From a phage, in sequence record EF517045.1: DNA of 541 bases; one strand, 5' to 3'. Every line of letters begins with the position of its first letter. The first letter of the stretch is position 1. The notes under the pieces are model-generated. The model was not told the DNA's origin. It worked only from the letters and a program-made list of their open reading frames with translations, and searched no databases. A program made the translations under genes and the position numbers. This document shows, piece after piece, positions 1-541 of the stretch.

Positions 1-292
1 TACTGTGGAGGCAGGACGAGATGAGATGGCTGTAGGCTCTCACGCTAAGGGTTACAACCACAACTCTATCGGCGTCTGCCTTGTTGGTGGTATCAACGAT
101 AAAGGTAAGTTCGACGCTAACTTTACGCCAGCCCAAATGCAATCCCTTCGCTCACTGCTTGTCACACTGCTGGCTAAGTACGAAGGCGCTGTGCTTCGCG
201 CCCATCATGAGATAGCGCCGAAGGCTTGCCCTTCGTTCGACCTTAAGCGTTGGTGGGAGAAGAACGAACTGGTCACTTCTGATCGTGGATAA
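1..292 (+). CDS. 3.5: T7-type lysozyme / N-acetylmuramoyl-L-alanine amidase (gp3.5), C-terminal part; 5' end lies upstream of the window
   Basis: ORF track 5..292 (95 aa); the frame is open back to position 2, so the GTG at 5 is an internal Val codon, not a start. The translation ...EAGRDEMAVGSHAKGYNHNSIGVCLVGG...LRAHHEIAPKACPSFDLKRWWEKNELVTSDRG is near-identical to my recollection of the C-terminal two thirds of phage T7 lysozyme (Amidase_2/PGRP fold). The AHHE..PKAC segment carries the equivalents of zinc ligand His122 (203-205), catalytic Lys128 (221-223) and zinc ligand Cys130 (227-229). TAA stop at 290-292. Confidence 0.93.
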   Translation, partial: TVEAGRDEMAVGSHAKGYNHNSIGVCLVGGINDKGKFDANFTPAQMQSLRSLLVTLLAKYEGAVLRAHHEIAPKACPSFDLKRWWEKNELVTSDRG

Positions 293-293
293 T

Positions 294-316
294 TAATTGA
301 ACTCACTAAAGGGAGA
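294..316 (+). promoter_or_regulatory. T7 RNA polymerase promoter, class II (phi3.8-type); predicted transcription start at G311
   Basis: TAATTGAACTCACTAAAGGGAGA aligns without gaps to the 23-nt T7 consensus TAATACGACTCACTATAGGGAGA (-17 to +6), with mismatches only at -13, -12, -11 and -2. The -9 to -3 core CTCACTA and the +1 to +6 GGGAGA are intact. It starts 2 nt after the gene 3.5 stop, and +1 is 45 nt upstream of the next ATG, which fits the phi3.8 arrangement in T7 as I recall it. Confidence 0.85.
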
Positions 317-343: not shown

Positions 344-349
344 GAAGGT
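344..349 (+). promoter_or_regulatory. Shine-Dalgarno / ribosome-binding site for gene 3.8
   Basis: GAAGGT at 344-349, followed by a 6-nt spacer (CAAATA) and the ATG at 356-358; purine-rich and complementary to the 16S rRNA 3' end at canonical spacing. Confidence 0.6.
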
Positions 350-355
350 CAAATA

Positions 356-541
356 ATGCGCAAGTCTTATAAACAATTCTATAAGGCTTCGAGGAGACAT
401 ATCCAAGTGTGAAAGGCAGCCAATGGACCTATACCAAAAGGTTATTATATAGACCACATTGACGGCAATCCACTCAACGACGCCTTAGACAATCTCCATC
501 TGGCTCTCCCAAAAGAAAACTCATGGAATATGAAGACTCCA
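356..541 (+). pseudogene. 3.8: Gene 3.8 homologue (small HNH-endonuclease-like protein) interrupted by an in-frame TGA at 410-412; HNH motif still encoded downstream in the same frame; 3' end beyond the window
   Basis: ATG 356 with SD, then MRKSYKQFYKASRRHIQV followed by TGA (410-412). The same frame continues without further stops to position 541 as KAANGPIPKGYYIDHIDGNPLNDALDNLHLALPKENSWNMKTP, which contains the HNH signature (His 455-457 in DHIDGN, Asn 467-469, NL 491-496, EN 515-520). Both other + frames hit stops soon after 410. HNH_3-type phage proteins normally have Trp-Glu where this sequence has stop-Lys. The pseudogene call assumes the TGA is real and not a sequencing error. Confidence 0.6.

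What the first reader, a model, noticed from the sequence alone, without database searches (positions are those of the whole stretch)
410..541. Coding constraint persists downstream of the stop: recent inactivation or UGA readthrough?
After the TGA only the gene 3.8 frame stays open to the window end (43 codons) and it encodes a clean HNH motif; the +1 and +2 frames terminate soon after. So the lesion is either very recent, with no secondary decay yet, or the TGA is partly decoded. UGA is the leakiest stop in E. coli and its natural near-cognate suppressor is tRNA-Trp, which would restore the ancestral Trp. The stop is followed by A (UGA-A), which to my knowledge is not the most efficient termination context. 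Reinitiation is unlikely to rescue the protein: the only in-frame start candidate downstream is the ATG at 530-532, which has no SD and lies after the HNH motif.
Basis: inference. Interest (0 to 1): 0.5.

Follow-up and report, generated by a model that had tools for sequence, protein, structure and literature searches.

The report
Mutagen-made stop codon in T7 gene 3.8
The stop codon is an ordinary, very recent knockout of a dispensable phage T7 gene in a heavily (probably chemically) mutagenised lineage, and the open reading frame after it is inherited sequence, not a sign that the stop is being read through.

Summary
The window is phage T7 nt 10870-11410: the end of gene 3.5, promoter phi3.8 and the first 62 codons of gene 3.8, an HNH endonuclease. 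TGA at 410-412 replaces Trp19, and 43 codons stay open behind it. The interpretation "coding constraint persists" is not supported.

- **Mutation pattern:** all 12 differences from wild-type T7 are G>A or C>T. All are derived relative to natural relatives, and 8 of 12 lie at 5'-GG. This is a GC>AT mutagen signature.
- **Precedent:** two T7 records, isolates K and P, show the same spectrum. All five of their inactivated genes carry the same lesion, TGG>TGA with the frame open behind it.
- **Chance:** with four hits downstream, the probability of no second stop is 0.87.
- **Other damage:** gene 3.8 also lost its Shine-Dalgarno (GGAGG>GAAGG). It carries P12S and R48H at residues invariant in 15 natural homologues.
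- **Dispensability:** the literature calls gene 3.8 non-essential, and other lab T7 clones carry a different gene 3.8 nonsense mutation.

Background UGA leakage inserting Trp is possible, but nothing suggests it is selected. The finding is ordinary and of low interest.

The parts
1..292 (+). 3' part of T7 gene 3.5 (lysozyme/amidase), stop TAA at 290-292. It carries 4 GC>AT changes: position 95 gives D>N, positions 212 and 214 together give V>I, and position 283 is synonymous.
   Evidence: 97.8% identical to T7 NC_001604 10870-11410. Annotation, substitution list. N at the D>N site occurs in two natural homologues.
294..316 (+). T7 class II promoter phi3.8 (TAATTGAACTCACTAAAGGGAGA), +1 at 311. 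Unchanged in the window.
   Evidence: The promoter is annotated at T7 nt 11180, which is window position 311. No substitution falls inside it.
344..348 (+). Shine-Dalgarno of gene 3.8, GGAGG in wild type and GAAGG here (G>A at 345).
   Evidence: Substitution. The predicted duplex with the 16S 3' end weakens from -10.0 to -3.5 kcal/mol. 11 of 13 aligned natural relatives have G at this site, one has T and one has A.
356..409 (+). Gene 3.8 codons 1-18, the only part that terminating ribosomes translate. It carries P12S (C>T at 389) and a synonymous change in Arg14 (G>A at 397).
   Evidence: P12 is invariant in 15 natural homologues.
410..412 (+). Premature opal stop TGA, TGG (Trp19) in wild type. 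The change is G>A at 412, T7 nt 11281. The next base, 413, is also mutated G>A (E20K).
   Evidence: W19 is invariant in 15 natural homologues, and G at 412 and 413 is invariant in 13 aligned relatives. The stop lies inside the HNH_3 domain, residues 14-56.
413..541 (+). Gene 3.8 codons 20-62, now untranslated apart from any leak. It holds the HNH_3 core including His34. It carries E20K (413), a synonymous change in Gly24 (427), R48H (498) and a synonymous change in Asn58 (529).
   Evidence: His34 is described as the predicted active-site residue in bioRxiv 10.1101/2025.09.07.674715.

Best explanation
The window comes from a phage T7 lineage that has passed through heavy GC>AT mutagenesis. The pattern matches T7 records AY264775 and AY264777 (isolates K and P), which I recall to be the Hillis/Bull nitrosoguanidine lines. 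One of the induced G>A transitions turned Trp19 (TGG) of the dispensable HNH endonuclease gene 3.8 into TGA. Translation ends after 18 residues, before the HNH domain is made. The downstream 43 codons stay open and recognisable only because they were inherited intact a short time ago and few of their sites can mutate to a stop. Selection is not maintaining them. Gene 3.8 has taken several independent hits: its Shine-Dalgarno, P12S, W19stop, E20K and R48H. Shown here: the identity of the locus, the direction and spectrum of the changes, the identical lesions in K and P, and the chance calculation. Inferred: the nature of the mutagen and the laboratory origin, because the source record was not found.
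For: - **Locus:** T7 nt 10870-11410, 97.8% identical.
- **Spectrum:** all 12 differences are G>A (9) or C>T (3). The closest natural relative, NC-A, has the T7 base at all 12 sites. Five sites (389, 412, 413, 427, 498) are invariant in all 13 aligned relatives.
- **Contrast with natural divergence:** between T7 and NC-A only 6 of 18 differences are GC>AT (Fisher p = 3e-4). In the window, 8 of 12 mutated G have a 5' G against a 25% baseline (p = 0.003).
- **Positive control:** T7 isolates K and P have 419 and 308 substitutions versus their ancestor. 93% are GC>AT, and the mutated G has a 5' G in 41-43% against a 22% baseline.
- **Same lesion in the controls:** their five inactivated genes (4.7, 5.7, 5.9, 0.4, 4.2) all carry TGG>TGA. 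The frame is open for 17-87 codons behind it, and three of the five are TGA-A.
- **Expected frequency:** at this mutation density the full gene 3.8 is expected to carry 0.71 nonsense hits, so P(at least one) = 0.52. P(no second stop in codons 20-62 | 4 hits) = 0.87.
- **No sign of constraint:** 2 of the 4 downstream changes are non-synonymous, against a neutral expectation of 67%. P12 and R48 are invariant in natural homologues. The Shine-Dalgarno duplex weakens from -10.0 to -3.5 kcal/mol.
- **Relaxed selection in other lab lines:** gp3.8 takes mostly missense changes in K (4 of 5) and P (3 of 4).
- **Dispensability:** gene 3.8 is called non-essential, and an insert in it has no detectable effect (PMC6042481). 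A T7 deletion of genes 2.8, 7.7 and 3.8 was constructed and isolated (bioRxiv 10.1101/2025.09.07.674715). Two lab T7 clones read here carry a different gene 3.8 nonsense, S56 TCA>TAA, with no other change in the 1,141 bases compared.
- **Mutagen spectrum in the literature:** GC>AT dominates after nitrosoguanidine or hydroxylamine treatment of T7 (PMC6042481).
Against: - The source record was not found in INPHARED, IMG/VR, GTDB genomes or JGI metagenomes, nor in the gene-position index. Laboratory origin is therefore inferred from the spectrum alone.
- The context differs in one respect from K and P. None of the 12 mutated G has a 5' A, whereas about 40% do in K and P. I estimate P of about 0.005 for zero of 12, from the rates. 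The agent may be a different GC>AT mutagen, a deaminase, or template damage.
- Only 541 bases are available. The genome-wide mutation load and the rest of gene 3.8 cannot be seen.
- Twelve changes give no statistical power to measure selection directly.
Confidence: 0.9

Rival explanations
1. Functional UGA readthrough. Near-cognate tRNA-Trp decodes the TGA often enough to supply working gp3.8 with the ancestral Trp, and selection therefore keeps the downstream frame intact.
For: - UGA is the most read-through stop in E. coli K-12, and Trp is the main residue inserted.
- A base after the stop that is not T gives weaker termination. K-12 RF2 is a weak allele (PMC11126739; PMC5373646).
- The frame is open for 43 codons, and HNH_3 is still detected at E 9e-15.
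Against: - The stop is a derived lesion, one of 12 GC>AT hits. It is absent from all 15 natural homologues and from every collection searched.
- The open frame is expected by chance (P = 0.87).
- The Shine-Dalgarno is destroyed, and the invariant residues P12 and R48 are replaced.
- There is no unusual RNA structure after the stop (z = -0.38).
- TGG>TGA is the universal nonsense lesion in isolates K and P.
- The gene is dispensable.
- Extension products tested by Western blot were undetectable with the B-type RF2. From memory, E. coli B is a usual T7 host.
Confidence: 0.04
2. A natural T7 variant in which gene 3.8 has recently become a pseudogene. This would be ordinary decay of a homing-endonuclease-like gene in the wild.
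For: - HNH homing-endonuclease genes are described as selfish elements. That they often decay is my own knowledge.
- One natural Klebsiella phage, IME205, carries TGG>TGA at codon 105 of its gp3.8 homologue.
Against: A strictly one-directional spectrum, 12 of 12 GC>AT and all derived, is unlike natural T7/NC-A divergence (6 of 18; p = 3e-4). It includes GG-context enrichment. No matching natural record was found.
Confidence: 0.03
3. The GC>AT changes are not in a living phage at all. They would be template damage (cytosine deamination) or an error-rich, low-coverage read or assembly, or the product of an engineered deaminase system acting on T7 DNA.
For: - Cytosine deamination gives exactly GC>AT (established chemistry, from my own knowledge).
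- The absence of 5'-AG targets differs from K and P.
- The source could not be traced.
Against: - The enrichment is on the 5' side of G, not the 5' side of C. The 5' neighbours of the mutated C are T 4, A 4, C 2 and G 2, counted by hand. From my own knowledge, this is not a TC or WRC deaminase motif.
- A 2.2% error rate in a consensus sequence is implausible.
- The same kind of genome exists as viable phage (isolates K and P).
Confidence: 0.03

Closest known systems
Phage T7 gene 3.8 (NP_041974.1), an HNH_3 (PF13392) homing-endonuclease-like protein
   Same: Same locus and same neighbours: gene 3.5, promoter phi3.8, gene 3.8. It is 97.8% identical in DNA. The HNH_3 domain is still recognisable, and the predicted catalytic His34 codon is present.
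   Different: The reading frame is broken at codon 19, the Shine-Dalgarno is weakened, and there are three missense changes. Two of them are at invariant residues.
T7 isolates K and P (GenBank AY264775 and AY264777). I recall these as the nitrosoguanidine lines of Hillis et al. 1992 and Bull et al. 2003; those papers were not read here.
   Same: A near-exclusive GC>AT spectrum, enrichment at 5'-GG, and non-essential genes knocked out by TGG>TGA with the frame open downstream.
   Different: - The set of mutations is independent. The window does not carry the seven changes that isolate P has in this stretch, and no record in the phage collection scores above wild-type T7.
- The local density is higher, 12 per 541 nt against means of 5.6 and 4.1.
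- No 5'-AG targets are hit.
- In K and P, gene 3.8 carries only missense changes.
Lab T7 mutant clones with gene 3.8 S56 ochre (MZ375257 and OL964739, read here)
   Same: A single nonsense mutation in gene 3.8, with the rest of the gene intact.
   Different: A different codon and a different kind of change: TCA>TAA, a transversion. There is no other change in the 1,141 bases compared. Three further records (MZ375259, MZ375263, MZ375264) show the same split annotation and identity but were not read.
Programmed UGA readthrough, such as the phage Q-beta coat/A1 protein (from memory)
   Same: A UGA that tRNA-Trp can misread, with an open frame behind it.
   Different: There, the stop and the extension are conserved and the extension is needed. 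Here, the stop is a unique derived lesion in a dispensable gene, with no conservation, no stimulatory structure and damaged translation initiation.

Membership tests
T7 gene 3.8 / HNH_3 endonuclease gene | Orthologous position and sequence (between gene 3.5/promoter phi3.8 and gene 4) | tested here: met
   541 of 541 bases align to T7 10870-11410 at 97.8% identity. The annotation shows gene 3.5, phi3.8 and gene 3.8.
T7 gene 3.8 / HNH_3 endonuclease gene | HNH_3 domain detectable, with the catalytic His | tested here: met
   PF13392 at E 9.4e-15, residues 14-56, when the stop is read as Trp. The His34 codon is present. His34 is given as the predicted active site.
T7 gene 3.8 / HNH_3 endonuclease gene | Intact open reading frame (a functional member) | tested here: not met
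   TGA at codon 19, inside the domain. This is therefore a null or pseudogene allele of the family, not a functional member.
Programmed stop-codon readthrough | The stop codon is conserved at that position in relatives | tested here: not met
   All 15 natural homologues have Trp at codon 19, and the 13 aligned at the DNA level have G at positions 412 and 413. Exact-pattern scans of IMG/VR, GTDB genomes and JGI metagenomes found nothing.
Programmed stop-codon readthrough | Purifying selection on the sequence downstream of the stop | tested here: inconclusive
   There are only 4 substitutions, 2 non-synonymous and 2 synonymous, against a neutral expectation of 67% non-synonymous. R48H hits an invariant residue. 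No evidence for constraint, but also no statistical power.
Programmed stop-codon readthrough | A stimulatory context or RNA structure 3' of the stop | tested here: not met
   Folding of 404-500 is no more stable than shuffled sequence (z = -0.38). The +4 base is A; in the reporter survey T after the stop strengthens termination and G weakens it (PMC11126739).
Programmed stop-codon readthrough | A readthrough product detected | not testable with these tools
   This needs a reporter assay, a Western blot or ribosome profiling.
GC>AT-mutagenised T7 lineage (like isolates K and P) | Substitutions almost exclusively GC>AT and derived relative to wild type and outgroups | tested here: met
   12 of 12 are GC>AT. 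NC-A has the T7 base at all 12 sites. K and P show 93% GC>AT.
GC>AT-mutagenised T7 lineage (like isolates K and P) | Mutated G preceded by a purine (5'-GG and 5'-AG), as in K and P | tested here: inconclusive
   5'-GG accounts for 8 of 12 (p = 0.003). 5'-AG accounts for 0 of 12, although it makes up about 40% in K and P.
GC>AT-mutagenised T7 lineage (like isolates K and P) | Non-essential genes knocked out by TGG>TGA with otherwise intact frames | tested here: met
   5 of 5 inactivated genes in K and P show this. The window shows the same in gene 3.8.
GC>AT-mutagenised T7 lineage (like isolates K and P) | Genome-wide load of hundreds of such changes, and a documented provenance | not testable with these tools
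   Only 541 bases are available, and the source record was not found.

The most novel reading that the evidence does not exclude
Low-level misreading of the TGA by tRNA-Trp would regenerate a trickle of full-length gp3.8 carrying the ancestral Trp19, and that small amount would matter to the phage. A nuclease-independent role is one possibility, since catalytically dead gp3.8 H34A is reported to blunt the GAPS4 defence system. On this reading the opal allele is a down-tuned allele rather than a null.
Probability: 0.03. Interest if true: 0.3.

Novelty: already known. Interest (0 to 1): 0.07.

Why it matters
It matters mainly as a caution. An open, motif-bearing frame behind a premature stop is the default state of any recent nonsense mutation. 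A UGA at a former Trp codon is the expected product of GC>AT mutagenesis. Neither is evidence for recoding. The useful by-product is a quick diagnostic: a one-directional substitution spectrum against the nearest reference flags a mutagenised or damaged sequence from only 541 bases. If the readthrough idea were true it would add only a minor example of background UGA leakage.

Tried and rejected
- **Search for the source record.** I ran megablast against 50,697 phage records. I scanned IMG/VR once, and GTDB genomes and JGI metagenomes twice each, for exact patterns spanning the mutated sites. I also looked up the partial gp3.5 product in the gene-position index. All were negative.
- **A guessed accession.** GU071092 turned out to be a Prochlorococcus phage, and GU071091 is plain wild-type T7.
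- **Primary papers not held.** Springman et al. 2010 and Bull et al. 2013 are not in the library. Statements about them rest on what PMC6042481 and PMC8923235 say of them.
- **Solved structures.** The PDB sequence search with gp3.8 gave only a spurious repeat match to a designed Kelch-like protein, 7ONG, which I discarded.
- **RNA structure after the stop.** None was found beyond shuffled controls.
- **Clustering of mutations.** There are two pairs of sites at most 2 nt apart (212/214 and 412/413). This is not significant (P = 0.075), and K and P show no clustering either.
- **Strand bias.** 9 G>A against 3 C>T is not significant (p = 0.09).
- **Deaminase-type context.** The 5' neighbours of the mutated C show no preference (hand count).

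Full report
**What the window is.** The 541 bases align end to end with phage T7 nt 10870-11410 at 97.8% identity. The T7 annotation places four features here:
- the last 97 codons of gene 3.5 (lysozyme/amidase), with its stop at 290-292;
- the class II promoter phi3.8, with +1 at 311;
- a Shine-Dalgarno at 344-348;
- gene 3.8, starting at ATG 356.

Gene 3.8 is a 121-residue HNH endonuclease. Pfam HNH_3 matches residues 14-56.

**Checking the observation.** In the gene 3.8 frame the window reads MRKSYKQFYKASRRHIQV*KAANGPIPKGYYIDHIDGNPLNDALDNLHLALPKENSWNMKTP.
- The TGA is at 410-412 and the next base is A.
- 43 codons follow without a stop.
- The other two forward frames stop after 13 and 16 codons.
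- The only canonical in-frame start downstream is ATG 530-532, after the HNH_3 match.

One detail is off: the motif is not untouched, because R48H falls in the 'NLRLA' element.

**Where the stop came from.** A base-by-base comparison with wild-type T7 gives 12 differences. Nine are G>A and three are C>T, with nothing else.
- I aligned 13 natural relatives fetched from IMG/VR. The closest, phage NC-A, has the T7 base at all 12 sites. Five sites (389, 412, 413, 427, 498) are invariant in all 13. The window therefore carries the derived states.
- Natural divergence looks different. Between T7 and NC-A only 6 of 18 differences are GC>AT, a significant contrast (Fisher p = 3e-4). Eight of the 12 mutated G have a 5' G, against a 25% baseline (p = 0.003).

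As a positive control I compared whole genomes of two T7 records, isolates K and P (AY264775, AY264777), with their ancestor AY264774. From memory these are the nitrosoguanidine lines of the Hillis/Bull experiments; the records themselves give only the isolate names.
- They carry 419 and 308 substitutions, and 93% are GC>AT.
- The mutated G has a 5' G in 41-43% of cases, against a 22% baseline.
- PMC6042481 states that GC>AT mutations dominate after nitrosoguanidine or hydroxylamine mutagenesis of T7.

One discrepancy remains. In K and P about 40% of mutated G have a 5' A, and in the window none do. I therefore name the agent only as a GC>AT mutagen, not specifically nitrosoguanidine.

**Why the open frame and the Trp-to-UGA change carry no information.** In K and P the depositors demoted five non-essential genes to 'similar to gene X'.
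- All five carry TGG>TGA at a Trp codon.
- All five keep the frame open to the natural stop, 17 to 87 codons further on.
- Three of the five are TGA-A.

Under a GC>AT process only TGG, CAA, CAG and CGA codons can become stops. Gene 3.8 has 16 such targets among its 166 G:C sites.
- At the window's rate of 4.5% per G:C site, 0.71 nonsense hits are expected in the gene, so P(at least one) = 0.52.
- Codons 20-62 have only two stop-capable sites out of 60. With the four hits observed there, the chance of no second stop is 0.87.

**Is there constraint on the gene?** There is none that I can detect.
- Of the four substitutions after the stop, two are non-synonymous (E20K, R48H). The neutral expectation is 67%.
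- P12, W19 and R48 are invariant in 15 natural homologues.
- The G>A at 345 turns the Shine-Dalgarno GGAGG into GAAGG. The predicted pairing with the 16S 3' end weakens from -10.0 to -3.5 kcal/mol.
- Gene 3.5, by contrast, shows one D>N at a site where two natural homologues also have N, one conservative V>I and one synonymous change. The numbers are too small for a formal test.
- In isolates K and P, gene 3.8 accumulates mostly missense changes: 4 of 5 and 3 of 4.

**Dispensability.**
- PMC6042481 calls gene 3.8 non-essential and reports no detectable effect of an insert replacing most of it.
- A recent preprint constructed and isolated a T7 triple deletion of genes 2.8, 7.7 and 3.8. It names His34 as the predicted active site.
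- Two lab T7 clones that I read (MZ375257, OL964739) carry a different nonsense mutation in gene 3.8, S56 TCA>TAA. It is the only change in the 1,141 bases compared. Three more records show the same split annotation but were not read.

**The readthrough alternative.**
- In E. coli K-12, TGA is the stop most often read through, and Trp is the main residue inserted.
- T after the stop strengthens termination and G weakens it (PMC11126739).
- K-12 has a weak RF2 allele. The extension products that were checked by Western blot were undetectable with the B-type RF2 (PMC5373646).

Some ribosomes may therefore pass this TGA, as at any UGA. Nothing marks this site as special.
- The stop is unique to this lineage.
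- There is no RNA structure behind it (z = -0.38).
- Translation initiation is damaged.
- The product would carry substitutions at invariant residues.

**Verdict.** This is a known kind of event in a known gene. The one loose end is provenance, because the exact sequence is absent from every collection I could search.

Noticed in passing
L015:1813-1815 (Klebsiella phage vB_KpnP_IME205, KU183006 / NC_047761): A natural isolate carries TGG>TGA at codon 105 of its gp3.8 homologue. The stop is followed by A, and the frame is open to the normal stop. Close relatives have TGG. The record annotates the stretch as a homing or HNH endonuclease.
   Followed up: partly
window 344-348: The G>A at 345 changes the gene 3.8 Shine-Dalgarno from GGAGG to GAAGG. 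The predicted anti-SD duplex weakens from -10.0 to -3.5 kcal/mol.
   Followed up: yes
L030:820-822 and L031:820-822 (MZ375257 and OL964739; equivalent to window 520-522): Two lab T7 clones carry gene 3.8 S56 TCA>TAA as the only change in the 1,141 bases compared, and annotators split the gene in two. Three further records (MZ375259, MZ375263, MZ375264) show the same annotation pattern but were not read. Whether this allele arose once or recurrently, or is favoured in the laboratory, was not examined.
   Followed up: partly
L002:911 and L002:915 (AY264777, isolate P; equivalent to window 311 and 315): Isolate P has G>A at positions +1 and +5 of promoter phi3.8. It also has G37D, P39S and D45N inside the gp3.8 HNH motif. 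This is another route by which gene 3.8 expression or function decays in that lineage.
   Followed up: no
window, all 12 substituted sites: None of the 12 mutated G has a 5' A, although 5'-AG accounts for about 40% of hits in T7 isolates K and P. The mutagen or process behind this lineage may therefore differ from theirs.
   Followed up: partly
window 212-214 and 412-413: There are two pairs of GC>AT changes at most 2 nt apart. One turns GTG into ATA (V>I), and the other gives W19stop plus E20K. The clustering is not significant (P = 0.075), and K and P show none.
   Followed up: yes
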